Shown in pieces: positions 24,203 through 45,724 of a stretch of 64,000 nucleotides of DNA; the first letter of the stretch is position 1; the number at the start of each line of letters is the position of its first letter. The notes below the pieces were generated by a model. It had not been told where the DNA came from. It searched no databases and saw nothing but the letters and a program-made list of their open reading frames with translations. Position numbers and translations under genes: made by a program. The stretch is taken from the IMG/VR virus record IMGVR_UViG_3300035034_003774. One strand, written 5' to 3'. The DNA is from a virus.

Positions 24203-24639
24203 TTATCAGCTTTGCTTTTTTCTATTTCACTTGGAATAACTCTATCCTCAAAAAATTGAAGCATTAGATCATATTGAAACTTCATCGTAACATTAACCTC
24301 CTTTAAGGAATCATTTTTATCCTTAAGTCTTTCGATCTCGTTTTTCATTCCAGCACGCTCTTCAACCTCCTGCTTTATAAACATCCCTGATGTCAAAAGA
24401 GTATCACCAACCTCATGCTTATAGTTCGTATAATAATATGTGGTTCCAGAATAACTTCTTATCTTAACCTCATACTTATACTTATCACTCGTGGAGCATT
24501 GGCCACAATCCTCCTCCTTGACGTCATCGTTAGCATTTACCTGCTCAACTACAAGTGTCTTCTCTATCATGGATACACTATCTTCGCAGGAAGATAAAAC
24601 CACGGCTAATGCACATAAAAATAAAAATTTAAACTTCAT
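24199..24639 (-). CDS. putative lipoprotein
   Basis: signal peptide with LSSC lipobox-like cysteine. Confidence 0.35.
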   Translation of the reverse strand: MKFKFLFLCALAVVLSSCEDSVSMIEKTLVVEQVNANDDVKEEDCGQCSTSDKYKYEVKIRSYSGTTYYYTNYKHEVGDTLLTSGMFIKQEVEERAGMKNEIERLKDKNDSLKEVNVTMKFQYDLMLQFFEDRVIPSEIEKSKADK

Positions 24640-25465
24640 CGTTTTCTGTATTTAATATAGGTTCAGCATCCTCAAAGATAACCTCTGCCTTGTTAGTAAT
24701 TTTGTTAAATATTGGGTATTCTACAACCTTAATCGAACTTCTCTCCTTAACAAGATCAGGATTAGTTCTAGCATGATGTTTTTCAGGAAGGCTATCAAGC
24801 TCTTCAGTTGTAAATGGCTCTGATGTCTTAATTCTTTTCACATAAACACCACGCTTATATTTAACTGGAAGGTCGTTCCAATTAACACCCTCCTCAAGCA
24901 TTAGCTTATCTTGCATCTGAGACCCATTCAACCCATGCAACTGACTGGTAGGGTTACCATGAGAAAAATAACTTTGAGCAAGCATTGAAATACTATTCTT
25001 TACAGCGTCATTCTCACGCCACAATAACTGAACAACTGCATCATGAAGAGTTGGTGTCTGATAGATTCTTGCATCAAATACAGCGTTCTTATTATGATCT
25101 GGAAGAAGCTCTCTCCTTCTGTCATTAAAGAAGTTTACCAACTTACCTGGTAGCTTAGATAAAATCTTCTGCTTCCTACCATCGTGATATATTGAACTCT
25201 TTCTGTCAGGTGAGTACAGAATTAGAGTGATCTCATCGCTCTGTGTGTATCCTACAACCGCATTAGTCTCCTCAACCAAGAATTGAGTGGTTTCAGTCAT
25301 TAATTGATTTAAACCCTCATCAAACGGCTTATCCAAGCCTCTAGTCCATTTACTGAAATTGTTTCCATCCAGTCTAATAATAACTGGTAAGGTGGGAATC
25401 ATTATTTCTGGAGAAAAGTTTTTTTCCAGCCACTTACACCAGTCACCCATTGTTTCGAAATCCAT
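24629..25465 (-). CDS. Thg1-like protein (tRNA-His guanylyltransferase family, 3'-5' nucleotide addition)
   Basis: VIIRLDGNNFSKWTRGL, GYTQSDEITLIL, conserved Thg1 core over ~250 aa. Confidence 0.6.
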   Translation of the reverse strand: MDFETMGDWCKWLEKNFSPEIMIPTLPVIIRLDGNNFSKWTRGLDKPFDEGLNQLMTETTQFLVEETNAVVGYTQSDEITLILYSPDRKSSIYHDGRKQKILSKLPGKLVNFFNDRRRELLPDHNKNAVFDARIYQTPTLHDAVVQLLWRENDAVKNSISMLAQSYFSHGNPTSQLHGLNGSQMQDKLMLEEGVNWNDLPVKYKRGVYVKRIKTSEPFTTEELDSLPEKHHARTNPDLVKERSSIKVVEYPIFNKITNKAEVIFEDAEPILNTENDEV

Positions 25466-25467
25466 AT

Positions 25468-25851
25468 TTATTTCTTTTTTAATATATTTACACTCTTCAT
25501 CACATTAAAAGGAGTATAAGAATGAGCGACAAAATTAATGAAATACTCTTTATCTTCTATTCTAATCGAACAGGATAAATTGGCATGATACATCTTTGAA
25601 TCTGATACATCATTACTACCTTCACTCATTTTTATAGTTAAATTATAGCCCTCTTCTGGTATTAGCAATCCTTCCTGTAGAGACGCATAATTATCAGTCT
25701 CAAATATAAAAGTTGATTGTGAAAACTGACTCCTCTTTACATCTGAAAAATTTTTTACAAAACTTTCATCTAATAAGTCGAGGAATGACTCTACTTTCTT
25801 AAACCCCTCCAAGGTCTTTGCAGATATTACGATATTTCTTTTTTCTGACAT
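25468..25851 (-). CDS. hypothetical protein
   Basis: 127-aa ORF. Confidence 0.3.
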   Translation of the reverse strand: MSEKRNIVISAKTLEGFKKVESFLDLLDESFVKNFSDVKRSQFSQSTFIFETDNYASLQEGLLIPEEGYNLTIKMSEGSNDVSDSKMYHANLSCSIRIEDKEYFINFVAHSYTPFNVMKSVNILKKK

Positions 25852-25875
25852 ATTTCTATTTATTCTTCAAGATCA

Positions 25876-26415
25876 TCAAATAAAAACCAGATCATCAAAT
25901 AAAAACCAGTGATCTTTATTTTTACTCAAATTATAAGGAACTTCTTCTTCTTTTTCCTCACTCCAATCAAACCATGGATTAGAGTTAACGCTTGTTTGGT
26001 TCCAGGCTACAGCATCAATATCTTCATCCTGGATGAATGACTCAATAATATCAGCTTGTTCAAGTATTGATGACTTTCCTTCATAAGTCTTGTCAAAACT
26101 TCTCATTGCCTTGATAATTTTGTCAAAATTCTCTCTTTTAACAACAACTCTATCAAAAGTAGTTGCCATAACAATCCTCTCATCAATAGGGACATCTTTG
26201 TTATTAGCAAGTTCCCAAATCTCTTTAACACCATTTGGGTCCATTAAAGAGGTTCTTGATAATTTCTGAGTCGGGTCCCATGGAGCACTTTTTAATGCTA
26301 AGTGTTTCTCCTCCATTAATCCCCAAACTGCCATAGCACTTCTAAATGCATTCTTAACATCTTTTGTGTGATTTGACTCTTGATTTTTAAAAGCAACTAT
26401 TTCTGTATAACTCAT
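25876..26415 (-). CDS. hypothetical protein
   Basis: 179-aa ORF. Confidence 0.3.
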   Translation of the reverse strand: MSYTEIVAFKNQESNHTKDVKNAFRSAMAVWGLMEEKHLALKSAPWDPTQKLSRTSLMDPNGVKEIWELANNKDVPIDERIVMATTFDRVVVKRENFDKIIKAMRSFDKTYEGKSSILEQADIIESFIQDEDIDAVAWNQTSVNSNPWFDWSEEKEEEVPYNLSKNKDHWFLFDDLVFI

Positions 26416-26879
26416 TGAGCGTATTTTATTAGTGTAATTAATTCTTCAAATTCTTCTACTTGTGGCACATCATATTTATCGCACACAACATCTATATTAC
26501 CTTTTCTCCAGAATCCATCTGGACAATACACAACAAGCTTACCACTCCTTGCATACATACCAAACTCAAGTAATGATATGGGAGATATTGTATCTGGGGC
26601 CAAATATAAGATAATTAAATCAGAAGCTTCAAGCCCATCAAGTTCCCACTCTACCTGCTCCTTAAACTTAACATTATCAATTGATTGTTCCCAAGATGAA
26701 TCCCAGTCTTCTCTTCTTGGGTTTATGATAATCTTCTTAGTATCTTTTACGGCATCTATTATTTTAGCTTGCCAATCCTCAGCCTTACCCATCTCAATTG
26801 AACCTGCAAGAAAAATCTTCTTATAGTGCTTTGGCTTATCAAATAGCTTTGCTGGAGGTGTTAATACTATCGCTTCCAT
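26412..26879 (-). CDS. nucleoside 2-deoxyribosyltransferase-like (NDT/DNPH1-Rcl fold) protein
   Basis: KIFLAGSIEMGKAEDWQ N-terminal motif and ...LLEFGMYARSGKLVVYCPDG catalytic Glu region. Confidence 0.5.
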   Translation of the reverse strand: MEAIVLTPPAKLFDKPKHYKKIFLAGSIEMGKAEDWQAKIIDAVKDTKKIIINPRREDWDSSWEQSIDNVKFKEQVEWELDGLEASDLIILYLAPDTISPISLLEFGMYARSGKLVVYCPDGFWRKGNIDVVCDKYDVPQVEEFEELITLIKYAQ

Positions 26880-26919
26880 GTTTATCTTTATATGGTTATA
26901 ATATTTTATTCATACTTCT

Positions 26920-26948
26920 ATTATACGCTACAAATATAATAATGTTAC
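26920..26948 (-). promoter_or_regulatory. sigma70-like promoter GTAACA-N17-TATAAT
   Basis: minus strand TGTAACATTATTATATTTGTAGCGTATAAT, immediately after the terminator T-tract. Confidence 0.5.
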
Positions 26949-26975
26949 AAAAAAAGGCGCCAAATATATGGCACC
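26949..26975 (-). terminator. rho-independent terminator after SPFH gene
   Basis: GGTGCC-ATATATTT-GGCGCC then TTTTTTT on minus strand. Confidence 0.55.
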
Positions 26976-26998
26976 TTTTCACTACTGAACAGAGTAAG

Positions 26999-27940
26999 TT
27001 ATGATTCAGTAAGCAATTCCTTTCCCTTACCTTTATTATCATCAACTTTATCAGAAGCAATTGAAGCAGCTGTATACTGATCAATAACACCTTCTCCTTT
27101 AGCTGAATGAGGCATGAATATAACATTATTATTATCTCTGGCAATATCTCTCATAGTATCAAAGTACTGTGTAATCTCAACAAATCTCATTACATCTTCC
27201 TGCTTGATTCCAGTGTCCTTAGAGAATGTTCCAATTGAGTCCTTGAATCCTTCGATTATTGCATCTCTTTGTTGAGCAATACCCTTACCTTGAAGCGCTT
27301 TTGATTCAGCCTCAGCCTCTGCTGCTTTAACCTTTCTAATCTTTGCAGCATCACCCTCTTCTTCTGCAGCTCTCTTATCACGAGTTGCAGCATTAATTCT
27401 ATTCATTGCCTCCTTAACACTCTGATCTGGGTCAATATCAACCACAAGAGCATTTTTAATGACATAACCATAGGCTTCAATTGCATGAGAAAGCTGCTTC
27501 ATTACAGCGCTTTCAATATCTTCCTTATTCTCATAAACCTGGTCCAATTCTTTTCTTGGAACTTCTGCACGAATTTCATTAAATACATATGATCTAATCT
27601 GACGCTCGAAATCTGATAATTCATATACAGAATTAATAATAGACTCATCATTGTCCCTTACATAATACTGGACCGCCACTTTAATGTGAACAGAAACCTT
27701 ATCCTTTGTGATAGTTTCAACATCTACACCTATTTCATCAATTCTAAGGCTTTGTCTATAAGCCACTCTTTCTATGAAAGGTATTTTTAGTGTAAGCCCA
27801 GACCTTCTCAAACCCTTAAACTTACCAAACCTCTCAATTACCGCAACTTCTTTCTGTTTTGTGATTACTATAGAAGAAATCAACGCAATAAACGAAATGA
27901 ATCCTAATATACTAAGTGTAACAATACTTCCAACTCCCAT
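26999..27940 (-). CDS. SPFH/band-7 (stomatin/prohibitin-like) membrane protein
   Basis: N-terminal TM then SPFH domain (VAVIERFGKFKGLRRSGLTLKIPFIERV...), C-terminal coiled coil. Confidence 0.7.
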   Translation of the reverse strand: MGVGSIVTLSILGFISFIALISSIVITKQKEVAVIERFGKFKGLRRSGLTLKIPFIERVAYRQSLRIDEIGVDVETITKDKVSVHIKVAVQYYVRDNDESIINSVYELSDFERQIRSYVFNEIRAEVPRKELDQVYENKEDIESAVMKQLSHAIEAYGYVIKNALVVDIDPDQSVKEAMNRINAATRDKRAAEEEGDAAKIRKVKAAEAEAESKALQGKGIAQQRDAIIEGFKDSIGTFSKDTGIKQEDVMRFVEITQYFDTMRDIARDNNNVIFMPHSAKGEGVIDQYTAASIASDKVDDNKGKGKELLTES

Positions 27941-28051
27941 TTTCTATTTTTTTTGATTAATAATGACAAATGTAACTAATTATTATTTACGAAAGAAAAT
28001 TTTTGTCATAATTATTCTTTCTCTGCATTAAAAATGCTAATTTATGCTGCG

Positions 28052-29023
28052 CTATGTTAATGGCAGATTTCTCCTTTCTCTTAATACGTGGTTCTTAATG
28101 ATTGGAACACCTTTCTGAATCATTTCAAAAAATGTTTCTAAATCTTCTATCTCTGGAATTATTACATTATTATGTATTGCCGCCTCTGCATTAAAGAAAA
28201 AGTACATACTCATAAGTGGTGATACAAAAACATCCGCAGACTTTTCTTCTGGATACATATGAAAGTCTCCGAACATTCCTTCTGCAGCAGGTATTACTCT
28301 TGTCTGAACGTGGCTCTTTCTATGTCCGTTTTGACTAAAAGAATGAAGACAAGCGTCTTTATATTCTTTGAAAGAATCCATATAGTCAACAAGGCTGCAG
28401 CTTCCATAGAAACCACCTTGCCTACTAATTTTAGCCATATTCTCAAGCGCAAGATAGTGAGAAAGGTTTTCTTCTATCTCGGTTCCAAACCCAATGCATG
28501 CCAACATCTTTATTGGAACACCTACACCCTTTACTGCCGCAAGAGTAATAGTATCCTCCATCATTGTGCCACTTCCATCTTCGTCTCCAACCATTATAGA
28601 GTCAACGCCCCCATCCACAAGAAGTATAGCTCCAATGTCAAGATGCCTTACAAGTGTGTTTAGTGAATTTGTATATTCCTTAAGTGTTTGATCTCTTTTG
28701 AATGTCCATACATTTACATCCAACCCTTTTGCTTCCTTAAAGTAAGATGATAAATACATCTCTGGGAAGTTCTCTGAGGCGGAATGAATATTGCCAGTAA
28801 CTCCAACACAAGTATTTGTCATCGGAACTACTTCAGTAAAATTAGACATGGTATCCCAGGGACTATGAGTATAGTTCCCCAAATGAACATTAACTCCCAT
28901 TTTCTGCAAACTGGAGTGAATGGGTATTCCTGCAAATACATCATATCCCCCACCCATTCCAAGGATTAGGACATTTTTTGCCTGCCTCAATTTAAAGGCT
29001 ACTGATACTGGTAAATTAAGCAT
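28052..29023 (-). CDS. hypothetical protein (conserved-looking, glycine-rich Rossmann-like N-terminus)
   Basis: NVLILGMGGGYDVFAGIP...LLVDGGVDS. Confidence 0.3.
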   Translation of the reverse strand: MLNLPVSVAFKLRQAKNVLILGMGGGYDVFAGIPIHSSLQKMGVNVHLGNYTHSPWDTMSNFTEVVPMTNTCVGVTGNIHSASENFPEMYLSSYFKEAKGLDVNVWTFKRDQTLKEYTNSLNTLVRHLDIGAILLVDGGVDSIMVGDEDGSGTMMEDTITLAAVKGVGVPIKMLACIGFGTEIEENLSHYLALENMAKISRQGGFYGSCSLVDYMDSFKEYKDACLHSFSQNGHRKSHVQTRVIPAAEGMFGDFHMYPEEKSADVFVSPLMSMYFFFNAEAAIHNNVIIPEIEDLETFFEMIQKGVPIIKNHVLRERRNLPLT

Positions 29024-29025
29024 AA

Positions 29026-29283
29026 TTAAATAATTTTTATAGACATTATTACATATCCCTTCTTGAGTCCGAAATCTCCATCTTCAGCCCTGAGTATATT
29101 AGTTACTTTAACCGCAACTTCACTACCAGTGTATTCGCTTTTTTTTGGCTCATATTCTCTCAATCCAAGAGTATCTCCAGTCTTGAAGTCTCTGTCATCC
29201 TTTCTAATCTCAAATGTCTTGAAACCATAAACTATAGAGTTATAATGATCTGGATGAATCTTTAAGTTGTGATAATTACTCAT
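29026..29283 (-). CDS. ASCH / PUA-like (DUF3850-type) small RNA-binding fold protein
   Basis: HPDHYNSIVYGFKTFEIRKDDRDFKTGDTLGLREYEP matches the ASCH pattern. Confidence 0.45.
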   Translation of the reverse strand: MSNYHNLKIHPDHYNSIVYGFKTFEIRKDDRDFKTGDTLGLREYEPKKSEYTGSEVAVKVTNILRAEDGDFGLKKGYVIMSIKII

Positions 29284-29893
29284 TGAGTATAACCTTTCTA
29301 TTTTTCAACTCAAAAAATGATCTTGCACAAGCCTTAACATCATCAAGAGCATCGTGAGCTCCTTCAAACTCTTCATCAAATAACTTAACGTGAAGTTCAG
29401 TTAAGGTTGGCCATTTATATGTACCATATCTAAATGGAGGCATCTTGCAAAATCCTGTAGTCTCCTGCATTGTGCAAACTTTTCTTGGCTGATTTTCTGG
29501 AGCGACATCAACTCTTATAAATTCAGCACCAATAACATTAATATCAAAATTCATGTTATGAGCAATTAAATAATCAGCTTTTTTCATGTCTTCTAAAAAC
29601 TCTTCAATCGCTTCTAATAATGGTATACCAAATTCTTCACATCTCTCAGTTGACATATTGTTCTCAACGAAAAAGTTAGGATTTCTATTACCTTGCTTGG
29701 TCAGTTCCTCAACCGTTGGTATTGTCCAACCATCTGGCTTTATAAGGTGGCTCTTTTCATTGATGAGATTCTCATTCTCATCATATAATTGCCATCCTAA
29801 TTGTGTAACTCTTGGCCAATTATCCAAGTCGTAAACGGGTGCTTTAAAGTTTTTAGCCATCCCGTTTGTCTCTGTGTCAAAAAATAAATACAT
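29276..29893 (-). CDS. DEDDh 3'-5' exonuclease (DnaQ/epsilon-like)
   Basis: Exo I FFDTETNG, Exo II LIAHNMNFD, Exo III GAHDALDD. Confidence 0.65.
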   Translation of the reverse strand: MYLFFDTETNGMAKNFKAPVYDLDNWPRVTQLGWQLYDENENLINEKSHLIKPDGWTIPTVEELTKQGNRNPNFFVENNMSTERCEEFGIPLLEAIEEFLEDMKKADYLIAHNMNFDINVIGAEFIRVDVAPENQPRKVCTMQETTGFCKMPPFRYGTYKWPTLTELHVKLFDEEFEGAHDALDDVKACARSFFELKNRKVILNE

Positions 29894-30700: not shown

Positions 30701-31483
30701 TCACCCCCTTTTAACTATCAAGCTAACAAATTGATTAAACACCTCTGAAAACTCTGGCACCTCATTTATAATAGGCATAACACCATCAATTATTTCCTTT
30801 GGAATATCTTTATAATAAGCTTCCGCTATAGAACCTGCCATTGCAGCTATTGTGTCTGAATCTCCCCCTATTGAGATAGCCTTCCTGATACAGTCTTCAT
30901 AATTATCTGATTCCAGAAAAGCAATTATTGACTCTGGGACAGAACCCTTGCAGCTTACATCAAACTCATATGTAGGACGAATCTCATCAATAGTTCTATC
31001 AAGATCATACTTGAACTCATTTTCAATCATCTGCTTGATGACTTCCTTGCTCGAACCAGTTCTGGCCATATAAATAGACGCAGCAATTGCTTGAGCACCT
31101 TTAATACCTTCTGGATGGTTGTGAGTAACCTCTGCTGATAGCTTCGCCTGTTCCATAACCTCATTGAGGGTGTCAAAAAGCCACCCAACTGAAGACACCC
31201 TCATAGCAGAACCATTGCCCCAGCTATCGTAAGGACCAGCGTTGTCATCATCAAGCCAAGCAATAAATGACGAGCCATATCCAGCAAGTGGATGAGCTCT
31301 ACCGTACTCCCTGATCGTATCAGCATAATCCTTACCATTCATTATAGCATCAGCTACAGCAATTGTAAGCGTTGTATCATCTGTATATCTACAGTCATCT
31401 CTAAACAAAGGGAATTCAGTGTGCTTCACGTTTATCCCTTCATACACAGACCCTATTACGTCTCCACAAATCGCTCCTAACAT
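30701..31483 (-). CDS. ADP-ribosylglycohydrolase (ARH/DraG family)
   Basis: MLGAICGDVIGSVYEG N-terminal motif, later DSDTIAAMAGSIAEAYY. Confidence 0.6.
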   Translation of the reverse strand: MLGAICGDVIGSVYEGINVKHTEFPLFRDDCRYTDDTTLTIAVADAIMNGKDYADTIREYGRAHPLAGYGSSFIAWLDDDNAGPYDSWGNGSAMRVSSVGWLFDTLNEVMEQAKLSAEVTHNHPEGIKGAQAIAASIYMARTGSSKEVIKQMIENEFKYDLDRTIDEIRPTYEFDVSCKGSVPESIIAFLESDNYEDCIRKAISIGGDSDTIAAMAGSIAEAYYKDIPKEIIDGVMPIINEVPEFSEVFNQFVSLIVKRG

Positions 31484-31845
31484 TATAGTAATTTTGAACC
31501 GTAAATATAATCACTTGGGTTAACAAATAATCCACCGTCATGATGTTCCGCAACCATTATCATAACTTCACTTTTCACCCCTTTAATAACCGATGGCTTA
31601 AGGTTCATAACAAATGGACACTGTATACCAATCAAATCATTTGGCTCATGTGTCTTCCCTAAGTTTGTAAAAGCAGTTTTTTCGAAATTTATTTCCTCAC
31701 CATTTTCATCAATATCATCAAACTGAACTCTCAATTCAAGTCCGTAGCTATTAGGAACTTTCTTGGCCTCATTTATAATTCCAATTCTTATATCAAGTTT
31801 CTTCTCTATTTCAAGGAACTCACTAAATTCAATTTCTTCTTTCAT
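31483..31845 (-). CDS. hypothetical protein
   Basis: 120-aa ORF, ATGA overlap. Confidence 0.3.
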   Translation of the reverse strand: MKEEIEFSEFLEIEKKLDIRIGIINEAKKVPNSYGLELRVQFDDIDENGEEINFEKTAFTNLGKTHEPNDLIGIQCPFVMNLKPSVIKGVKSEVMIMVAEHHDGGLFVNPSDYIYGSKLL

Positions 31846-39267: not shown

Positions 39268-40110
39268 TTATATCCCAAGGCCTTCTTCTATTACAAAACT
39301 TTTTTCTTGCAATATCATAGAAGTATATGCTATGTGAGGCATTTTGCTACTTATGTTAGAAATTTGGTTTTCGTTATGGTGATAAGTTAGCAGGTTTTTA
39401 AACTTTTGCTTAACTGGCTCCAGAAGCTCAAAATTACAATGAGGGTTCTGATCATGAACAAGATCAGTCATATCATGAAATATGAATACATTATCTGGCT
39501 TTTCATAAACAAATGAATAATCCTCTTCTGGCATAAGATCAGTTATAGGAACATTAATATCCCCACTATATATCACAACAGCATAGTCATCCTTAGTCTG
39601 AATATGAAATAACAACCCAGAATTAGGGAAATTATTAACTGGCCAATGGTGAGCTGATGTATCTATCTTTGTGATGCTTATGTTCTCATCTTCAAGAAAC
39701 ACATTCACTTCATTTATTACATACTGATCATGAGGGTGTCCGCAAATATCAAGATACTGCCTAACTCTATCAGACACATTCTTATGACACTCTATGACTG
39801 TTGTTTTATTATGAATAAAAAACCTGTCATATATCAAAGTGCTAAGTCCATTAATGTGATCTTCATGAGTATGAGTTATAAAAACCCTATCAATACTATC
39901 TAAGAGATTTGATTTTCTAAGTTTAGAATAAGCAGTATATCCACAATCAATTAAAAACCTCATTCCGCCATTTGTTGTAAAAAGAGCACTTGCTGTGCCT
40001 TCTTCTGTATCAAAAGCTCCTCCTATACCAAGAAATTCTACTTGTAAAATTTTGTTGCCACTTGGTTTTAAAGCTGCGTCAATACCTTTCCTAATACTAA
40101 TCTTAGACAT
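39268..40110 (-). CDS. metallo-beta-lactamase fold hydrolase (RNase Z / nuclease-like)
   Basis: FITHTHEDH (HxHxDH) zinc motif. Confidence 0.5.
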   Translation of the reverse strand: MSKISIRKGIDAALKPSGNKILQVEFLGIGGAFDTEEGTASALFTTNGGMRFLIDCGYTAYSKLRKSNLLDSIDRVFITHTHEDHINGLSTLIYDRFFIHNKTTVIECHKNVSDRVRQYLDICGHPHDQYVINEVNVFLEDENISITKIDTSAHHWPVNNFPNSGLLFHIQTKDDYAVVIYSGDINVPITDLMPEEDYSFVYEKPDNVFIFHDMTDLVHDQNPHCNFELLEPVKQKFKNLLTYHHNENQISNISSKMPHIAYTSMILQEKSFVIEEGLGI

Positions 40111-40167: not shown

Positions 40168-41376
40168 TTATACTTTATCTACAAGGAAAAGTCCAAGTGT
40201 TTTCATACCAAGTTCTAAATCCTCCTTCAATGTACTGAACATCACTTCATTTTCTGGATTTCCCTTGATCTGATGAGTTTCATAAAGCTTGTTAATCTTC
40301 TTGCAATAATCTATGAGCGCATTAAACAATATATTTGGCTGAAGGTTATATAAAGACTTCATATATGCATATTGAAGCTCTGTACTATTGAATTTATCAA
40401 CCTTCATTGCTCGAACTCCAGCGGAAGTTAATCGTGCAAGCGTGTAAGAAACATATAAGCCTGGAGAATTTTTGGCATTATCAATTAACTCTACATTAAC
40501 CTTCTTATCTTTAGATGGGTCCACCTTAAGTATAAAACCAGCTAGAACATTATAAGAAAGATCATAATCGTTATCAAACTTATCAAGACAATCCTTTAAT
40601 ATATCATCAAAATAAATAACATTTCCATCACGACTTGACATTTTAAGCTCTTTAACTTCTCCGTCTTCTGGGTCTTTCTTCATCACCTTAACAAGACCAA
40701 GCCCAATGTGGTTTGTCAATGGACAAATCTTTTTAAGCATATTAAAATGACCATTCTGTTCGTTTCCAGTTAAATATAATGTTGGAGCATTTAGCTTGTC
40801 TGCAAGTGCTACATCTTGATACAAATAACTACTTGAGCCATCACTCTTAACTCCAACTACTTTCTCATCCCCTATGTGAAACACTTGAGTGCCTTCATAG
40901 CTACCTTCTCCTGGCTTTAACAAACTTCCTTTGTACTCCATAGAAGAAGCATAATAAACATCACTTACATGCAGATCGAATGTATCACAATAAGTTCTAT
41001 ACATATGATATGCTTCATGCTTTTCTACATCTCCTTCTAAAGTATCTCCAAGAATGGATATAAACTTATCAGCAACTCCCATTGACTGAAGTGTCTTGGC
41101 TATAATGAAATTGGACATATGCCCAATGTGTAAGTGCTTATTAAGATTTGGGCTAAAACCATCACAATACTTATATTGAGAGAATTTCTCAAAACACTCA
41201 GAAATATCAAAGTTTTTTGGAACCAATATGTTTGTGTACGGAGAACTGTCTTCAAGACGAAAACCCCAGGACTCAGCCCAGTCTTTAATTTCACTGTTGG
41301 GCTTACCATATACGCAGAATCCGAATTCACCATCTCCAGGTATAACTCGAATGTTATTTATGTTTATTTTCTTCAT
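40168..41376 (-). CDS. class I aminoacyl-tRNA synthetase, arginyl-tRNA synthetase-like (truncated N-terminus)
   Basis: HIGH motif (LHIGHMSNF), KMSSRDG (KMSKS-like), C-terminal NSPGLYVSYTLARL resembling the ArgRS DALR anticodon-binding domain. Confidence 0.5.
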   Translation of the reverse strand: MKKININNIRVIPGDGEFGFCVYGKPNSEIKDWAESWGFRLEDSSPYTNILVPKNFDISECFEKFSQYKYCDGFSPNLNKHLHIGHMSNFIIAKTLQSMGVADKFISILGDTLEGDVEKHEAYHMYRTYCDTFDLHVSDVYYASSMEYKGSLLKPGEGSYEGTQVFHIGDEKVVGVKSDGSSSYLYQDVALADKLNAPTLYLTGNEQNGHFNMLKKICPLTNHIGLGLVKVMKKDPEDGEVKELKMSSRDGNVIYFDDILKDCLDKFDNDYDLSYNVLAGFILKVDPSKDKKVNVELIDNAKNSPGLYVSYTLARLTSAGVRAMKVDKFNSTELQYAYMKSLYNLQPNILFNALIDYCKKINKLYETHQIKGNPENEVMFSTLKEDLELGMKTLGLFLVDKV

Positions 41377-41959
41377 CTATTATTTTTTTTATAGCTTTTT
41401 TCTTATTCATTTTTAGTACGTACTCTGAATGCTCTTCAAACATACCTTTTGCCTTAGCTGCATTAACTCCCTTTTCAAGTCTTGGATAAAAGTTAACAGC
41501 AGTTCCAATAGTCATGTGAAAACCAAAATAAGGCTTCTTGCTCAACCCCAACTCTTGCCTTATTGAATGGAGTTGGTCTCTAAATTGATATGGTACGGTT
41601 AACCACCAATCCTCGAAATTACCTTGCCTATTCTGAATCCCCAAGAAAGGGTCAACATGCACAGTTACCTCGATCTCTTTACCATTCCATTTTTTCTTAA
41701 CCTCTTCCCACTTTCCATTTGTTTCTGAAGCTCTATCATTTACAAGAGTAACGTGAGCTCCCCTAATTGGTTTTTGCAAAATTAGATTATACCTCTTCTT
41801 TATGAACCAAGCATAATAATCTGTAATACCCTTGTGATGATTATCTGACTCAAATAATATCAAAGCAGATTTCTTCCACTCAGAGTGACGCTCCTGCTTT
41901 GAGGTTATTACTTCTGGGTCAAAAACTATCTTTCCCTTAAATTTTACGCAATTATCCAT
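41354..41959 (-). CDS. 2H phosphoesterase (LigT / 2'-5' RNA ligase-like)
   Basis: two H-x-T-x motifs (AHVTLV and FHMTIG). Confidence 0.5.
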   Translation of the reverse strand: MDNCVKFKGKIVFDPEVITSKQERHSEWKKSALILFESDNHHKGITDYYAWFIKKRYNLILQKPIRGAHVTLVNDRASETNGKWEEVKKKWNGKEIEVTVHVDPFLGIQNRQGNFEDWWLTVPYQFRDQLHSIRQELGLSKKPYFGFHMTIGTAVNFYPRLEKGVNAAKAKGMFEEHSEYVLKMNKKKAIKKIIDEENKHK

Positions 41960-42015
41960 TTTTACTCAAAAAAAAAGACCCACTTAAAGTGAGCCTTATA
42001 TAAATTTTAATTGGC

Positions 42016-42483
42016 TTACTTCTTCTCTATTTTCCAAACACCCAGCCCCTTTGTATTAAATACAGAGTACCTATCTTCATAAGCGAGTATAGCTCCGTTA
42101 CTAAGTGTAAATCCTACACTAAAATCTTCACCCTCCACACTGAACTTTGCACCATCATTACCAATTGGTTCTACAGACATTCCCACTATAGTTGTGGTAT
42201 CTTGGTTAAATGTCAACAGACCACCTTTATAAAATTCAGCCTCACTAATTATGCAATTAAGACCAGCTATCTTCCTTCCATTTGGTAGGTTGACGCTATC
42301 ATCTAATTGACAACTCCTGATTTCAAGACCATATCCAGGAATTTCCTTAGAACCCACAAGATATGGAATATTGTCACCTATGGCCTGATCTGTCTCTGGC
42401 TTATAAAAAGCGACATAAGTACTATCTTGCGAAAAACTGCAAAAAGATGTAAGTGTAATCAAAAGTAGTAGTAAAGTTTTCAT
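42016..42483 (-). CDS. secreted hypothetical protein
   Basis: signal peptide MKTLLLLLITLTSFCSFSQ. Confidence 0.3.
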   Translation of the reverse strand: MKTLLLLLITLTSFCSFSQDSTYVAFYKPETDQAIGDNIPYLVGSKEIPGYGLEIRSCQLDDSVNLPNGRKIAGLNCIISEAEFYKGGLLTFNQDTTTIVGMSVEPIGNDGAKFSVEGEDFSVGFTLSNGAILAYEDRYSVFNTKGLGVWKIEKK

Positions 42484-42486
42484 GTT

Positions 42487-43056
42487 TTATTTTTTTAATA
42501 GTTCATCAGCCTTTTCTTTAACGACTTTCATATCAACTTCAAGACCCTTAAATCCTCCCATGATCTTACCAATGTGGTTCGCACCCCCATCAACTAACTC
42601 CTGTAACTTAGCATCAATTTCCTGCTCAGTCATTTGCTTTGGAAGATAAGATTGAACCACTTCAAGCTCCATTTCTTCATTCCAGTCTTGTGGTGGAAAA
42701 TCCTTTGAAGCATTTGCATCAATAACACTCATAAGAGATTTCTCAAACTTCTTTAAAACTTTAATAACCTCTTCATCAGAAGGTTCTTTAGAATCTTTTG
42801 TAGCATCCCCCTTAACAAGTCCAAGGAAGTTCTTCTTTTCCATTTTCTTCGCTTTGAAAGCGTCGATGAAATCTTTGTTTATTTTTTCAATTAAAGTTGA
42901 CATATGTTTTTTATTTAAAGCGAATTTAATACAAAATTTGGTATCTGCAAAATTATTTATTTGAAATGTTTTTGCCATCAATACGTCTTTGAATGGTGAA
43001 CTCTCTCTTTCCACCGCAGAACTTACTCCACTGCTTACTTCCAATAAGTTCTTCAA
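42487..43056 (-). CDS. GatB/YqeY-domain protein
   Basis: C-terminal ...VQSYLPKQMTEQEIDAKLQELVDGGANHIGKIMGGFKG resembles the YqeY/GatB C-terminal domain. Confidence 0.45.
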   Translation of the reverse strand: MKNLLEVSSGVSSAVERESSPFKDVLMAKTFQINNFADTKFCIKFALNKKHMSTLIEKINKDFIDAFKAKKMEKKNFLGLVKGDATKDSKEPSDEEVIKVLKKFEKSLMSVIDANASKDFPPQDWNEEMELEVVQSYLPKQMTEQEIDAKLQELVDGGANHIGKIMGGFKGLEVDMKVVKEKADELLKK

Positions 43057-43288
43057 GGAAATCTGGAGTTATAAATCCATGCCAAAAAAAAGAATCTCCT
43101 TTATTTATGTTCTTCTCATAACCCCAACTAAGGACAAGGTATCCTTCATCTTTGAATCTGTACTTATCCATTTTCTCTAGGTTGTCTTCACTCTTATTTT
43201 TAAGTTGAGACACATCTACCTTATAGATAATATTTTGAAGAGGCTTTTTATTACGCTCTACACCTTTATTTGCATGTTCTTTTCCCAT
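42953..43288 (-). CDS. hypothetical protein (overlaps upstream gene 3' end)
   Basis: 111-aa ORF. Confidence 0.25.
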   Translation of the reverse strand: MGKEHANKGVERNKKPLQNIIYKVDVSQLKNKSEDNLEKMDKYRFKDEGYLVLSWGYEKNINKGDSFFWHGFITPDFLEELIGSKQWSKFCGGKREFTIQRRIDGKNISNK

Positions 43289-43322
43289 AGTAAGTTTTAC
43301 GCAAAAAAATAATTATGTTACA

Positions 43323-44456
43323 TTATTCATCATTCCAGCAATGACATCCATGATCTGCGTTATGACATGAACTACACACTCCAATAGATACGTTAATTAT
43401 TTTCCTTCTTTGAGAATCGTTAAGTCCTGGTACGTTTTCTTTTAATTGATCATAGAAGTATCTATAATCAGAAAACATTTCATCCATTGTTATTTCTCCC
43501 TCTGGGATGTATTGCTCAGCAATAGAATCATCTTCTTCTGCCCATACAGCAACTTCCCCATCATTCATAAACATAAGGTCCCTTCGATCAATAGGTTCTT
43601 TTAAAACAAGTTTTTTAAAGTACTTAAAGAACTTACTTCCTGGAACCTTAAATAGAGTGTCATGCTTTTCAGATAATCCACCCATTTTAGTCTGGTAGAT
43701 AGTCTGTACGCACATACCCCTTCCAAAGCCTTCATTCTTAAATACTTTGTAATGAGTAGGCATACCTATCATTTCATTTTTAATAATGTTTCCAATGGCG
43801 CTATTAATTATTTGAATTCTATTTACAGCAATCTTATGATCTGGTCTTAGCTTCAAAATTAATTCATCATGAGAAATAAAAACAAAATCATCCTCCTCAA
43901 AATCATAATCATCAATAAGAGCGTTAACAATTTTGATAATATTGCTATGCTGCCTTCTCTGGAGTCTCTTTGGATTTGTATTACCAAATACATACTGCCT
44001 AAATGACTTAGACTTAGAGAGAGTGTGATGAATATCAAGGTCCCTACACAGTCCCTCCCAAGAATCTCCAAGAGCATCAGAAGAATCAAATGTCTTTAAT
44101 GCATTATAATTAGCAGACTTAAAGTCAATAGAAATAAGATAGGTATTATCGTTATTTCTAAGATCATCCTTAGTCCTAAGTTTATCTGGCAAACTCCAGT
44201 CCATAAGATTCTTATATGCTTCAGAATTTACAAGGTAATCCTTCATTCTTGGAAGTGCATACTCAAGCTTGTATGACTTAGCGCTCTTATAGCCAAGTTC
44301 TTCACAATCCCTCTCGTATTGCTCATATTCTTTTACGAGATTTGGAAGGCCTGCATAAAAAGAGTCTCTAGCCAAGGTATCAATATAATACTGGGCATGC
44401 TCCTTTACAGGTATGTTTACCTTAAATAATTTTTGAAATTCTGTTAAATCTTTCAT
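43323..44456 (-). CDS. hypothetical protein with C-terminal Cys/His cluster
   Basis: CSSCHNADHGCHCWNDE tail. Confidence 0.3.
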   Translation of the reverse strand: MKDLTEFQKLFKVNIPVKEHAQYYIDTLARDSFYAGLPNLVKEYEQYERDCEELGYKSAKSYKLEYALPRMKDYLVNSEAYKNLMDWSLPDKLRTKDDLRNNDNTYLISIDFKSANYNALKTFDSSDALGDSWEGLCRDLDIHHTLSKSKSFRQYVFGNTNPKRLQRRQHSNIIKIVNALIDDYDFEEDDFVFISHDELILKLRPDHKIAVNRIQIINSAIGNIIKNEMIGMPTHYKVFKNEGFGRGMCVQTIYQTKMGGLSEKHDTLFKVPGSKFFKYFKKLVLKEPIDRRDLMFMNDGEVAVWAEEDDSIAEQYIPEGEITMDEMFSDYRYFYDQLKENVPGLNDSQRRKIINVSIGVCSSCHNADHGCHCWNDE

Positions 44457-45724
44457 TTATATTTTTTTCTAATGCTTTGATCTAAATAAAAATCTTTCCT
44501 AATCTTAACAAGAGTGTCATTGATGAGTTCTCTTGGAACTTGGTCTGGTAAATCTGAATTATCAAACAAAGTGTCAAGTTCGTTCATTTCTTTTTCAGCC
44601 CAATCAAGTAATTCCTCAAGATCAACCTTACCCTTCCTTACATCAAGAAGCTCCTCACGATTAGGCCTACGAATGGTCATCGTTCCAGTCTCAGCAATTT
44701 CTCTCGCAATCTGTAGCAACCTCTTACAATGCATAAGGTTTTTTCCATCATAACTTTGTCCATGCTCCTTATTATCAACATAGCGCTGCTCATTACGATT
44801 TTCCAACCACGTTTGATAGTTGGAGTAATCCTTACAAGACTTTGTATAAGAATCCTTGTTGTAAATAAGTTGAGTCACTGGCTGCTGACCCTTGGGTATA
44901 GAACTAAGTCTAAGTTGATTTGACTCGGAAGTGCTTTTTCCAACCCCAGTCTTAGAAACTCCTTTATAACCAAGACCCATTGACTTTTTAGCTTCTTTAA
45001 ATATTTTCTTGTTATGCTCTCTATTCTCTTCCGTCTCAAGTTCAGAAAAGCATATATGAGCATCCCAATCATAAAATAAAGCATAAACATCCCTTGCATT
45101 TGGTATTTTTGTGACTCCACAAAACTTCTGCTCCATCCCACAATTGTCAAGATACTTTTTAAGAGACTGTGTGCCGTAACCAGTTTCATCAATTACATAA
45201 CAAAAATCAATCGGCTCCTTTCGGGTAACACGATCACGTTCCCAATTCTGCATCTTATCAAGACCCTTAGCCTTCTGAATTTGCTTTTTAGCATATCCAG
45301 CAAAACTATATCTACATATCTTTGTTAAAAGCTGATCTCTTATATCAACAGCATGCTGATAAGCTTTGTGCTGTGTTATAATACAATCTTCTGGACTATA
45401 AAAAAGCTCAAGAACTGTTGGATTATTGCTATGAGCTAGTTCAAGAAATCTCTTGATTTCAAAACCAGTATAATCAGCATGAACCCTCACTTGATCAGAG
45501 TACTCAAAATCAAGACCATAAATTTTATCTTGCGGAAGGATATAAATAAAGGCTTTATCTACATCTGACTCTGGAGTCGATGTTCCATGAGCCTGAGAGC
45601 CTGTAATGGCTTCAAATAAAATGCAGTCATTATCTTTTAATAAATTATAAAACTCAAGGGCTTTACGCTCCTTGAGTTTCATTTTTTTATTATTATCCTC
45701 CAAATCTTTATTAATTCCTGTCAT
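44453..45724 (-). CDS. Pol-beta superfamily nucleotidyltransferase
   Basis: GSQAHGTSTPESDVDKAFIY = GS-x9-12-DxD NTase signature. Confidence 0.45.
   Translation of the reverse strand: MTGINKDLEDNNKKMKLKERKALEFYNLLKDNDCILFEAITGSQAHGTSTPESDVDKAFIYILPQDKIYGLDFEYSDQVRVHADYTGFEIKRFLELAHSNNPTVLELFYSPEDCIITQHKAYQHAVDIRDQLLTKICRYSFAGYAKKQIQKAKGLDKMQNWERDRVTRKEPIDFCYVIDETGYGTQSLKKYLDNCGMEQKFCGVTKIPNARDVYALFYDWDAHICFSELETEENREHNKKIFKEAKKSMGLGYKGVSKTGVGKSTSESNQLRLSSIPKGQQPVTQLIYNKDSYTKSCKDYSNYQTWLENRNEQRYVDNKEHGQSYDGKNLMHCKRLLQIAREIAETGTMTIRRPNREELLDVRKGKVDLEELLDWAEKEMNELDTLFDNSDLPDQVPRELINDTLVKIRKDFYLDQSIRKKYK

What the first reader, a model, noticed from the sequence alone, without database searches (positions are those of the whole stretch)
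24629..45724. Additional dispersed tRNA-maintenance genes (Thg1-like, LigT-like 2H, ArgRS-like, Pol-beta NTase, YqeY-like, MBL nuclease, LysRS, RNase R)
Outside the main repair cluster the window also encodes a Thg1-like 3'-5' polymerase (known to repair tRNA 5' ends), a 2H phosphoesterase (2',3'-cyclic phosphate processing) and a truncated ArgRS-like class I synthetase.
It further encodes a Pol-beta nucleotidyltransferase (possible CCA-adding or tailing enzyme), a GatB/YqeY-like protein, an MBL-fold (RNase Z-like) hydrolase, LysRS and RNase R.
The concentration of tRNA-centred functions suggests the element actively maintains the tRNA and translation pool during infection.
Basis: partly seen in the sequence, partly recalled or inferred. 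Interest (0 to 1): 0.6.

Follow-up and report, generated by a model that had tools for sequence, protein, structure and literature searches.

The report
Huge-phage tRNA repair and charging genes
This stretch of an uncultured huge phage really does carry a set of tRNA-repair and tRNA-charging genes, a known habit of such phages. Six of them form a conserved gene block that also holds a stripped-down arginyl-tRNA synthetase and an unstudied protein that nearly always sits next to the RNA-repair enzyme RlaP.

Summary
All eight named gene types exist, but LysRS (5525-7099) and RNase R (3181-5124) lie outside the stated span.

In range, on the minus strand:
- Thg1-like protein (TLP), 24629-25465.
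- MBL hydrolase, 39268-40110.
- 402-aa ArgRS-like protein, 40168-41376.
- 2H phosphoesterase, 41354-41959.
- YqeY, 42487-42903.
- Pol-beta NTase, 44453-45724. It is RlaP, the RNA-repair 3'-end nucleotide adder, not a CCA-adding or antibiotic NTase.

Neither refutation criterion is met. The ArgRS-like protein keeps HIGH, KMSS(R)xG and the Arg-binding Asp/Tyr residues. Its model matches only ArgRS structures at the top. In two distant huge phages it sits beside tRNA-Arg genes. It lacks a full Add1 domain and belongs to a ~392-aa family found only on huge-phage-like contigs.

The genes at 39268-45724 are not dispersed. RlaP, an unannotated 377-aa protein (43323-44456), YqeY, a small ORF, 2H and MBL keep this order in many divergent phage contigs. 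ArgRS is inserted only in the window's clade.

The RNase Z reading of the MBL is unsettled, because it looks at least as Apyc1-like. The general idea is already published for jumbo phages. The mini-ArgRS and the RlaP partner are the new parts.

The parts
24629..25465 (-). Thg1-like protein (TLP), a 3'-5' nucleotidyltransferase
   Evidence: Pfam Thg1 E 7e-23. phrog_4717 E 1e-66. Best PDB match is 4KGK, the B. thuringiensis TLP, E 1e-37 over residues 5-209. The sequence carries RLDGNNF and QSDE carboxylates, and WRENDAVKNSIS in place of the eukaryotic HINNLYN motif (read).
31483..31845 (-).
   Evidence: Pfam tRNA_bind E 9e-9, above cutoff. NCBIfam metG_C_term E 2e-13 and tRNA-binding protein models, all below their cutoffs.
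39268..40110 (-). MBL-fold metallohydrolase of the RNase Z / Apyc1 clade, last gene of the conserved block
40168..41376 (-). Mini arginyl-tRNA synthetase (402 aa), with catalytic core and C-terminal helical domain but no full Add1 domain
   Evidence: 696 homologs, mostly 390-410 aa, on contigs up to 711 kb. Invariant SPNLNKxLHxGH, KSDG..Y.YQD, TG.EQ..HF and KMSS.GN. Profile against PDB: yeast ArgRS E 5e-7. AF2 pLDDT 90; Foldseek top 20 hits all ArgRS, E 5e-16 to 2e-11. hhalign aligns residues 175-400 to E. coli ArgRS 304-575 of 577. tRNA-Arg genes adjoin it in L015 and L003.
41354..41959 (-). 2H phosphoesterase (2H-SAK-like); its 3' end overlaps the mini-ArgRS start by 23 nt
42016..42483 (-). 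Small conserved ORF (155 aa) with a signal-peptide-like N-terminus, function unknown, inside the block
   Evidence: No Pfam or PHROG hit. Homologs at 29-56% identity sit in the same position in many loci.
42487..42903 (-). YqeY / GatB-C-terminal-like protein (start revised from 43056 to the ATG at 42903)
   Evidence: Pfam YqeY E 2e-12 over residues 57-170 of the long ORF. phrog_1460 E 4e-21. Relatives are 135 aa. Its position between the 377-aa gene and 2H is conserved.
43323..44456 (-). Unannotated 377-aa protein ('U377'), start overlapping the RlaP stop by 4 nt, a conserved RlaP neighbour
   Evidence: No hit in Pfam, PHROGs, NCBIfam or PDB sequences. 551 representative clusters at E<=1e-3, with a core of about 300 aa. 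Invariant D111, R153-Q154, G158, D197-E198, D293 and W305. RlaP lies upstream on the same strand in 31 of 39 metagenome loci with enough flank, and within 100 nt in 17. It is also next to RlaP in L017 and L033, and a few small ORFs downstream of a Hen1-Pnkp cluster in L032.
44453..45724 (-). RlaP-family Pol-beta nucleotidyltransferase
   Evidence: PF10127 E 6.5e-23. phrog_388 E 9e-50 over residues 28-417. G42-S43 and the three Asp D54, D56 and D84 are invariant against divergent RlaPs. No antibiotic-NTase family hit. The only other hit is MntA at 17 bits against a cutoff of 60.
5525..7099 (-). Class II lysyl-tRNA synthetase (outside the finding's span)
   Evidence: tRNA-synt_2 E 6e-92 plus the anticodon OB domain. 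TIGR00499 lysS_bact 577 bits (cutoff 428) and NF001756 654 bits (cutoff 468).
3181..5124 (-). RNase R (outside the finding's span)
   Evidence: RNB E 1e-115 with CSD2, OB_RNB and S1 domains. TIGR02063 RNase_R 670 bits (cutoff 598).

Best explanation
The window comes from an uncultured huge phage, probably of a Bacteroidota host. It carries a toolkit for keeping tRNAs usable when host nucleases attack them.

Shown:
- Gene identities and intact catalytic motifs.
- The gene order RlaP -> 377-aa protein -> YqeY -> small ORF -> 2H -> (mini-ArgRS) -> MBL is conserved across divergent phage contigs.

Inferred pathway:
- Anticodon nucleases leave 2',3'-cyclic-phosphate and 5'-OH ends, sometimes with nucleotides removed.
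- The 2H enzyme opens the cyclic phosphate. The MBL enzyme may further clean the 3' end.
- RlaP puts back one or two nucleotides on the 3'-OH of the 5' fragment, perhaps helped by its 377-aa partner and the tRNA-binding-type YqeY.
- The Pnkp/Hen1 and Tpt1 genes elsewhere in the window (54038-60639) phosphorylate, seal, methylate and remove a junction 2'-phosphate.
- The Thg1-like protein separately rebuilds 5'-truncated acceptor stems.
- The mini-ArgRS and LysRS recharge tRNA-Arg and tRNA-Lys.
- RNase R clears damaged RNA.

The mini-ArgRS is most likely a working arginyl-tRNA synthetase for phage and/or host tRNA-Arg. It joined the repair block only in this phage's clade.
For: Gene identities.

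RlaP:
- The catalytic triad is kept.
- Published biochemistry shows RlaP adds 1-2 NMP to RNA 3'-OH and partly restores aminoacylation of a tRNA mimic missing one anticodon-loop nucleotide (PMC12776372).

Block conservation:
- In all 10 distinct IMG/VR loci fetched through the 377-aa protein, 2H lies downstream. In 8 of those 10, RlaP lies upstream.
- In metagenome loci, 31 of 39 have RlaP upstream and 17 of 23 have 2H downstream.
- Independent rearrangements keep the links. In L007 the order is aaRS-2H-RlaP with overlapping genes. In L009 a HAD_SAK_1 gene sits near 2H. L017 and L033 have RlaP-U377 pairs. In L032 U377 lies downstream of a Hen1-Pnkp cluster.

Mini-ArgRS:
- HIGH, KMSS and the equivalents of E. 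coli D118, Y313 and D317 (window D72, Y184, D188) are invariant (residue roles from PMC3956977).
- The model matches ArgRS first.
- It sits among other compact aaRS genes and PTH2 in 400-711 kb contigs.
- Four tRNA-Arg genes end 19 nt upstream of it in L015, and tRNA-Arg genes flank it in L003.

The window also holds Pnkp, Hen1 and Tpt1. The general scheme is published for jumbo phages (PMC7824862).
Against: - No activity was measured, so every pathway step is inferred from family membership and gene order.
- Conserved order among related phages can partly reflect shared descent rather than function.
- The block includes a signal-peptide-like small ORF that has no obvious place in RNA repair.
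- The MBL and 2H folds are also used by phage enzymes that destroy immune signalling nucleotides (Apyc1, Acb1). Sequence and fold scores do not separate these readings.
- The mini-ArgRS falls far below the NCBIfam ArgRS cutoff (55.7 against 261.65 bits) and lacks a recognisable Add1 domain.
- There is no tRNA gene in this window.
Confidence: 0.7

Rival explanations
1. The 2H and MBL proteins are anti-defence phosphodiesterases, Acb1-like and Apyc1-like. They would destroy the host's cyclic nucleotide immune signals rather than heal RNA ends. Their place beside RlaP and the mini-ArgRS would then be incidental.
For: - The MBL family profile matches Apyc1 structures 7T28, 7U2R and 7U2S (E 2e-17 to 2e-14) and 7FCT better than RNase Z (5e-12).
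- All 80 homologs but one carry a precomputed PF23023 Apyc1 hit.
- The window carries other likely counter-defence genes, NADAR and ADP-ribosylglycohydrolase.
Against: - The Apyc1 Pfam score is 33 bits against a cutoff of 50 and covers only the shared N-terminal metal motif.
- The 2H family hits the RNA-repair 2H-SAK model, not an Acb1 model.
- In independently rearranged loci, 2H sits next to RlaP (L007), near HAD_SAK_1 (L009) and about 4 kb from an RNA ligase (L008).
- The order RlaP ... 2H-MBL is kept down to 28-30% identity of the partner protein.
Confidence: 0.2
2. The mini-ArgRS is an aaRS-like paralogue with a job other than charging tRNA-Arg for translation. It might transfer arginine to another acceptor, or bind and sequester tRNA-Arg. 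Known precedents for truncated class I synthetase relatives are GluQ-RS and MshC.
For: - It is about 180 residues shorter than canonical ArgRS (577-607 aa chains).
- It has no Pfam Add1 or DALR hit.
- It scores far below the curated ArgRS cutoff.
- In this clade it sits inside an RNA-repair block rather than among translation genes.
- MshC appears among the lower fold matches.
Against: - All tested ATP-binding and arginine-binding residues are invariant.
- The C-terminal helical domain aligns to the very end of E. coli ArgRS.
- The top 20 fold matches are all ArgRS.
- In distant phages it lies beside other aaRS genes, PTH2 and tRNA-Arg genes.
Confidence: 0.12
3. The genes are unrelated accessory cargo. 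The shared order only reflects common descent of a huge-phage lineage, and there is no concerted tRNA-maintenance pathway.
For: - Most loci with the block come from what looks like one broad phage lineage, because an AAA ATPase also recurs upstream.
- The span 24629-39000 is a mix of unrelated functions.
- The block includes an ORF with a signal peptide.
Against: - The pairings survive rearrangement and strong divergence: RlaP-U377 at 25-34% RlaP identity in L017, 2H-RlaP overlap in L007, and U377 downstream of Hen1-Pnkp in L032.
- Overlapping stop and start codons suggest co-translation.
- The enzyme chemistries fit one pathway (PMC7824862, PMC12776372).
Confidence: 0.12

Closest known systems
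Jumbo/huge-phage RNA-repair and translation gene sets (Iyer et al. 2021, PMC7824862; Al-Shayeb et al. 2020, PMC7162821)
   Same: Same inventory: RlaP, Thg1, 2H, KptA/Tpt1, RNA ligase/Pnkp, aaRS genes and tmRNA. Same proposed purpose, countering tRNA-cleaving host defences and supporting phage translation. The only GenBank phage records with the mini-ArgRS are two 634-636 kb uncultured phages. Their size matches the largest genomes of the Al-Shayeb study, though that paper does not list the accessions.
   Different: Those surveys list gene families per genome. I found no description there of the fixed RlaP-377aa-YqeY-2H-MBL order, of the 377-aa partner, or of a shortened ArgRS.
RlaP (PF10127), characterised from Pseudomonas RtcB operons (PMC12776372)
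   Same: Pol-beta NTase core with the GS motif and three conserved Asp, followed by a C-terminal helical region. It is associated with RNA-repair genes.
   Different: The phage protein is 423 aa and has an insertion of roughly 120 aa relative to a 306-aa relative. It is not next to RtcB/RtcA. It is paired instead with the 377-aa protein, 2H and MBL.
Canonical arginyl-tRNA synthetase (E. coli 4OBY/5YYM, yeast 1BS2/1F7U)
   Same: Class I Rossmann core, HIGH, MSxRxG in place of KMSKS, Arg-binding Asp/Tyr/Asp, and a C-terminal helical anticodon-binding-type domain.
   Different: About 392-402 aa instead of 577-607. The ~100-aa Add1 domain is replaced by about 65 residues and the core insertions are shortened. 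Sequence similarity to canonical ArgRS is marginal: Pfam below cutoff, and PDB profile E 5e-7.
Bacterial Thg1-like proteins (BtTLP, 4KGK)
   Same: Alignment over residues 5-209 of 278 at E 1e-37. Catalytic carboxylates are present and the HINNLYN anticodon-recognition motif of eukaryotic Thg1 is absent.
   Different: Phage-encoded, with a C-terminal extension of about 60 aa. Its substrate is unknown.
Yeast/plant Trl1-Tpt1 tRNA ligation pathway
   Same: It combines a 2H cyclic phosphodiesterase, a 5' kinase, a ligase and a Tpt1 2'-phosphotransferase. All four activities are encoded in this window.
   Different: Here they are separate proteins of bacterial or phage type (Pnkp, Hen1), split between two loci. 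Whether the 2H product feeds Tpt1 is inference.
Apyc1 anti-Pycsar MBL phosphodiesterases (7U2R, 7U2S, 7T28)
   Same: MBL fold of similar small size (245-280 aa) with a similar N-terminal metal-binding region. Phage-encoded.
   Different: Below the Pfam family cutoff. Only the first ~85 residues align to Apyc1 chains. The gene context is RNA repair, not known for Apyc1.

Membership tests
Thg1-like protein (TLP) | Thg1 palm-domain homology above the curated threshold | tested here: met
   PF04446 81.4 bits against a cutoff of 29.2. 4KGK E 1e-37.
Thg1-like protein (TLP) | Catalytic carboxylates (DG... and SDE motifs) | tested here: met
   RLDGNNF and QSDEITL align to RIDGAHF and QSDEISI of BtTLP.
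Thg1-like protein (TLP) | Absence of the eukaryotic HINNLYN tRNA-His anticodon motif (TLP rather than true Thg1) | tested here: met
   The region reads WRENDAVKNSISMLAQ and aligns to WRQQDASKNSISMVAQ of BtTLP. The motif definition comes from my own knowledge of the family.
Thg1-like protein (TLP) | Templated 3'-5' addition on 5'-truncated tRNA | not testable with these tools
   Needs an enzyme assay.
RlaP (PF10127) | Pfam family score above the gathering cutoff | tested here: met
   82.1 bits against a cutoff of 23. phrog_388 E 9e-50.
RlaP (PF10127) | Pol-beta GS motif and three conserved catalytic Asp | tested here: met
   G42, S43, D54, D56 and D84 are invariant in the alignment with three divergent RlaPs. 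The requirement is stated in PMC12776372.
RlaP (PF10127) | Genomic association with RNA ligase / RNA-repair genes | tested here: met
   Pnkp (with ligase domain), Hen1 and Tpt1 lie 8-15 kb away in the window. 2H is in the same block. Relatives sit beside 2H and aaRS genes.
RlaP (PF10127) | Addition of 1-2 NMP to RNA 3'-OH | not testable with these tools
   Needs an enzyme assay.
Arginyl-tRNA synthetase | Class I core with HIGH and the MSxRxG (KMSKS-equivalent) loop | tested here: met
   L82-H83-I-G85-H86 and K245-M-S-S248-R-x-G251 are invariant or nearly so in 21 sequences. They align to yeast and human ArgRS motifs.
Arginyl-tRNA synthetase | Arginine-binding residues (E. coli D118, Y313, D317; PMC3956977) | tested here: met
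   D72, Y184 and D188 are invariant.
Arginyl-tRNA synthetase | Overall fold closest to ArgRS | tested here: met
   The AF2 model has pLDDT 90.4. The Foldseek PDB top 20 hits are all ArgRS (E 5e-16 to 2e-11), and CysRS follows at 5e-9.
Arginyl-tRNA synthetase | N-terminal Add1 domain (~100 aa) that reads tRNA A20 | tested here: inconclusive
   Only about 65 residues precede the core, and there is no Arg_tRNA_synt_N hit. An aromatic-x-Asn (Y/F47, invariant N49) sits on a predicted strand and could be a remnant pocket. Neighbouring phage tRNA-Arg genes keep A20.
Arginyl-tRNA synthetase | C-terminal DALR-type anticodon-binding domain | tested here: inconclusive
   There is no Pfam DALR hit. However, hhalign runs to residue 575 of 577 of E. 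coli ArgRS (E 7e-4, probability 27%), and the model is helical over 305-393.
Arginyl-tRNA synthetase | Curated equivalog score (TIGR00456) | tested here: not met
   55.7 bits against a cutoff of 261.65, with only residues 170-318 aligned.
Arginyl-tRNA synthetase | Arg-tRNA-Arg formation | not testable with these tools
   Needs an aminoacylation assay. Indirect support comes from tRNA-Arg genes adjoining the gene in L015 and L003.
2H phosphoesterase superfamily | Two H-x-T/S motifs | tested here: met
   H69-V-T and H148-M-T. Both His are invariant in 20 homologs.
2H phosphoesterase superfamily | 2H fold | tested here: met
2H phosphoesterase superfamily | Pfam family score above cutoff (2H-SAK or LigT) | tested here: not met
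   PF22547 18.6 bits against a cutoff of 27. A few homologs carry PF22547 or PF02834 hits.
RNase Z | Curated RNase Z model score and full-length match including the tRNA-binding exosite | tested here: not met
   NF000801 62 bits against a cutoff of 252, with residues 22-150 only. PDB RNase Z matches stop at about residue 154.
Apyc1 anti-Pycsar | Pfam PF23023 above the gathering cutoff | tested here: not met
   33.1 bits against a cutoff of 50, with residues 22-94 only. Profile against Apyc1 chains gives E 2e-16, N-terminal 85 residues only.
YqeY | Pfam PF09424 above cutoff | tested here: met
   48 bits against a cutoff of 27. phrog_1460 E 4e-21.
Class II LysRS | Equivalog model above cutoff | tested here: met
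   TIGR00499 577.5 bits against 427.6, and NF001756 654 against 468.
RNase R | Equivalog model above cutoff, with RNB, CSD and S1 domains | tested here: met
   TIGR02063 670 bits against 597.85. Domains are shown.

The most novel reading that the evidence does not exclude
The 377-aa protein at 43323-44456 founds an undescribed protein family that is a dedicated working partner of RlaP in RNA repair. With YqeY, 2H and the MBL enzyme it would form a self-contained 'end-restoration' module.

It might supply the nucleotide or substrate specificity that RlaP alone lacks. The published enzyme uses any NTP, and most of its repair products are expected to be wrong.

Alongside it, the ~392-aa ArgRS would be a fully active synthetase that works without a normal Add1 domain. 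I know of no shorter ArgRS, but I did not survey ArgRS lengths.
Probability: 0.35. Interest if true: 0.7.

Novelty: new variant of a known kind. Interest (0 to 1): 0.5.

Why it matters
That huge phages carry tRNA repair and charging genes is established, so the finding as written adds one more example. Two things go further.

1. RlaP has only just been characterised, and its authors left open how a non-specific nucleotide adder can restore a correct anticodon loop. A protein that sits next to RlaP across very divergent contigs, together with a tRNA-binding-type YqeY, a 2H enzyme and an MBL enzyme, gives a concrete set of candidates to test.

2. A conserved ArgRS that is a third shorter than any solved one, with all tested active-site residues intact and tRNA-Arg genes beside it, is a natural minimal enzyme. 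It could show what the Add1 domain and the core insertions are needed for.

Tried and rejected
- **Family A polymerase or Thg1-type palm for the 377-aa protein.** It shows D..AN, SK.FRQ..FG and SHDE motifs in the right order. hhalign against the E. coli Pol I polymerase domain aligned only the HDE stretch (E 0.1, probability 0.6%). hhalign against the window's TLP found nothing. Pfam gave Thg1 at E 0.016 in 3 of 23 members, which is not significant. I keep this as an untested idea only.
- **Phage tRNA-Arg might have lost A20 because the mini-ArgRS lacks Add1.** Rejected. All seven tRNA-Arg genes next to mini-ArgRS genes in L015 and L003 have A after G18-G19, while neighbouring tRNA-Lys and tRNA-Ala have C.
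- **45776-47242 as LysRS.** Rejected. It is an AAA ATPase.
- **A close cultured relative.** None. blastn against GenBank phages gave one 67% match of about 490 bases.
- **tmRNA by Rfam at gathering threshold.** No hit.
- **Literature.** No paper mentions 7FCT as a structure. The Burroughs and Aravind 2016 RNA-repair survey (PMC5062991) is not held, so I could not check whether it already names the 377-aa family. Searches for a phage truncated ArgRS found nothing relevant.
- **The 111-aa ORF at 42953-43288.** It has no counterpart in related loci, so I did not count it as part of the block.

Full report
**What the window is.** The sequence is about 35% G+C and almost all genes are on the minus strand, tightly packed. 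It has no close relative among GenBank phage records. The ArgRS-like protein occurs in that collection only in two uncultured phages of 634-636 kb. Al-Shayeb et al. report that their genomes above 634 kb are all predicted to infect Bacteroidetes (PMC7162821). One ORF carries a type IX secretion sorting domain. I therefore read the window as part of a huge phage of a Bacteroidota host.

**Check of the observation.** I scanned every sizeable ORF against Pfam, and the key ORFs against PHROGs, NCBIfam and PDB sequences.
- Six of the eight named genes are inside 24629-45724: Thg1-like (24629-25465), MBL (39268-40110), ArgRS-like (40168-41376), 2H (41354-41959), YqeY (42487-43056, better 42487-42903) and a Pol-beta NTase (44453-45724).
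- LysRS (5525-7099) and RNase R (3181-5124) pass curated equivalog cutoffs, but they lie some 20 kb outside the stated span.
- The ORF just beyond the span (45776-47242) is an AAA ATPase.
- Between 25.5 kb and 39 kb the span holds unrelated genes.

**Thg1-like protein.** Its best solved relative is the Bacillus thuringiensis Thg1-like protein (4KGK, E 1e-37). True eukaryotic Thg1 structures score only 1e-9. The DG and SDE carboxylates are present. The region that carries HINNLYN in eukaryotic Thg1 reads like the bacterial TLPs. Iyer et al. already note that Thg1 is sporadically present in jumbo phages (PMC7824862).

**The NTase is RlaP.** It hits PF10127 at E 6.5e-23 and phrog_388 at E 9e-50, with no antibiotic-NTase hit. 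In an alignment with three divergent RlaPs, the GS motif and three Asp (D54, D56, D84) are invariant. 'CCA-adding or tailing enzyme' is not the best description.

**The ArgRS-like protein.**
- Direct Pfam evidence is marginal (22.2 bits against 23.3).
- The protein belongs to a large, very uniform family: 696 hits. The best 120 are nearly all 390-413 aa and at least 50% identical, and some lie on contigs of 360-711 kb.
- Across 21 members, SPNLNKxLHxGH, KSDG..Y.YQD, TG.EQ..HF and KMSS.GN are invariant or nearly so.
- A family profile finds yeast, human and Thermus ArgRS. It aligns the HIGH region, the KSDG..Y..D block and the MSTRKG loop.
- Window D72, Y184 and D188 correspond to E. coli D118, Y313 and D317. 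D118 and D317 are essential for arginine binding and Y313 contributes (PMC3956977; correspondence).
- The AlphaFold model is confident (pLDDT 90.4). Its 20 best PDB matches are all ArgRS, followed by CysRS, MetRS and GluRS.
- hhalign places residues 175-400 on E. coli ArgRS 304-575 of 577, so the C-terminal helical domain is retained.
- The missing ~180 residues come from the N-terminal half. Only about 65 residues stand in place of the ~100-aa Add1 domain, and the core insertions are shortened.
- The first refutation criterion, loss of ATP-binding residues, is therefore not met.

**Context of the ArgRS-like gene.**
- In distant huge-phage contigs the gene lies among other compact aaRS genes and a PTH2 peptidyl-tRNA hydrolase.
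- In L015, four tRNA-Arg genes end 19 nt before its start. In L003, tRNA-Arg genes flank it.
- Those tRNA-Arg genes all keep A20. So either the short N-terminal domain still reads A20 (aromatic-x-Asn at 47-49 is conserved) or A20 is kept for the host enzyme.
- In 185,579 species-representative genomes the family appears only on seven MAG contigs of mixed taxonomic labels and in no isolate. That fits a phage-restricted family.

**The MBL protein.**
- The family profile matches 7FCT nearly full length (E 7e-22). It then matches 7T28 and the Apyc1 chains (E 2e-17 to 2e-14), ELAC2 (2e-15) and RNase Z (5e-12). All of these except 7FCT align only through the N-terminal metal motif.
- Both the curated RNase Z model and the Apyc1 model fail their cutoffs.
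- 'RNase Z-like' is therefore not established.

**The block is conserved.**
- In the window the genes from RlaP to MBL are co-directional, with gaps of -23 to +57 nt. RlaP and the next gene overlap by 4 nt, and 2H and ArgRS overlap by 23 nt.
- The gene after RlaP (43323-44456, 377 aa) has no hit in Pfam, PHROGs, NCBIfam or PDB sequences, either alone or as a profile.
- An exhaustive search finds 551 representative clusters for it, with a core of about 300 aa. Invariant residues are D111, R153-Q154, G158, D197-E198, D293 and W305.
- I fetched loci through this protein and searched them with the window's proteins. The same order appears in IMG/VR contigs at only 28-43% identity: RlaP, 377-aa protein, often YqeY and the small ORF, then 2H, often MBL.
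- Of 39 metagenome loci with at least 1 kb upstream, 31 have RlaP upstream on the same strand, and 17 of those lie within 100 nt. Of 23 loci with at least 3.5 kb downstream, 17 have the 2H gene. Some of these loci duplicate the IMG/VR ones. The search pattern also biases the sample toward relatives that keep the SKSFRQ motif.
- The mini-ArgRS lies between 2H and MBL only in loci whose 377-aa homologue is at least about 60% identical to the window's.
- Independent arrangements keep the links:
  - L007 has a class I aaRS, then 2H, then RlaP, with overlapping genes.
  - L009 has a HAD_SAK_1 phosphatase gene close upstream of 2H, with one small ORF between.
  - L017 and L033 have RlaP followed directly by the 377-aa family, with RlaP only 25-41% identical to ours.
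  - L032 has Hen1, Pnkp and, after three small ORFs, the 377-aa family.

**How it most likely works.** Shown are gene identities, intact motifs and conserved neighbourhoods. The rest is inferred.
- Host anticodon nucleases leave cyclic-phosphate and 5'-OH ends, and some also remove nucleotides.
- 2H opens the cyclic phosphate and the MBL may trim or clean the 3' end.
- RlaP restores one or two nucleotides, possibly guided by the 377-aa partner and YqeY.
- Pnkp/Hen1 seal and methylate.
- Tpt1 removes a junction 2'-phosphate, a step that only makes sense if a 2H-type healing route is used, as in the Trl1-Tpt1 pathway.
- TLP repairs 5'-truncated acceptor stems.
- The mini-ArgRS and LysRS recharge tRNAs, and RNase R removes debris.
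- From my own knowledge, not tested here: tRNA-Lys and tRNA-Arg are classic targets of PrrC and colicin D.

**Rivals.** First, 2H and MBL might instead be Acb1/Apyc1-type destroyers of immune signals. Second, the mini-ArgRS might be a non-translational paralogue. Third, the shared order might be inherited rather than functional. I rate each rival at 0.12-0.2.

**Novelty and score.** The overall picture is already published (PMC7824862, PMC7162821). The new elements are the conserved RlaP-centred block with an undescribed partner family and the shortened ArgRS family. I could not read the 2016 Burroughs and Aravind survey, so prior description of the partner family cannot be excluded. I score interest at 0.5 and rate the finding a new variant of a known kind.

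Noticed in passing
window 17465-17831 (+): ARAGORN calls a tmRNA with tag peptide GNDLTKSLALEAVLNSERAETTAVAPVAMAA. Rfam gives nothing at gathering threshold. It does give sub-threshold matches to tmRNA_permuted (RF04321, 37.9 bits against 47, full-length model, E 1e-5) and to tmRNA (RF00023, 22.7 bits). This is a candidate divergent or permuted phage tmRNA. It lies in a plus-strand island next to a sigma-70 gene (17900-18781). With RNase R at 3181-5124, it would fit ribosome rescue.
   Followed up: partly
window 30701-31845 (-) and 33826-34359 (-): The tRNA-binding-domain gene (31483-31845) shares one base with the start of an ADP-ribosylglycohydrolase gene (30701-31483, PF03747 E 4e-36). A NADAR gene (PF08719 E 2e-52) lies 2 kb away. 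Together they might reverse ADP-ribosylation of nucleic acids, perhaps tRNA. NADAR also recurs near the block in the related contig L001.
   Followed up: no
window 48259-50803 (-): A protein kinase (PF00069/RIO-like, 570 aa) and an overlapping PP2C phosphatase lie about 2.5 kb upstream of RlaP. A 38%-identical kinase sits directly upstream of RlaP and the 377-aa family in L033.
   Followed up: partly
window 42016-42483 (-): A 155-aa ORF has a signal-peptide or lipoprotein-like N-terminus (MKTLLLLLITLTSFCSF...). It is conserved inside the RlaP...2H block at 29-56% identity in many loci. This is odd for a cytoplasmic RNA-repair module and I have no explanation.
   Followed up: partly
window 43323-43535 (-), residues ~307-377 of the 377-aa protein: A C-terminal extension of about 70 aa ends in a Cys/His cluster (CSSCHNADHGCHCWNDE). 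It is present only in the closer relatives. Most family members stop at about residue 306. It may be an added zinc-binding module.
   Followed up: no
window 42953-43288 (-): A 111-aa ORF fills a roughly 420-nt gap between the 377-aa gene and YqeY. Related loci have only about 50-90 nt there and no homolog. It is either a clade-specific insertion or not a gene.
   Followed up: partly
L001 11331-12242 (-) and 15462-16550 (-): In the 75%-identical relative, opposite-strand genes interrupt the block: a 303-aa ORF between ArgRS and MBL, and a GIY-YIG-like ORF further on. They look like mobile endonuclease insertions. In that relative RlaP is not found in the 7 kb upstream of the 377-aa gene, where a DEAD/ResIII helicase gene sits about 0.3 kb upstream.
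   Followed up: no
L007 1582-2006 (+): A 388-kb contig that carries aaRS-2H-RlaP also has a clear ARAGORN tmRNA and tRNA genes a few kb upstream. This is another huge phage that combines ribosome-rescue and RNA-repair genes.
   Followed up: no
window 26412-26879, 36686-37243, 62199-63734 (-): Nucleotide and metabolic genes that are unusual for phages: a nucleoside 2-deoxyribosyltransferase-like protein (E 4e-34), a cytidylyltransferase-like protein and a glutamate synthase domain protein (E 1e-75).
   Followed up: no
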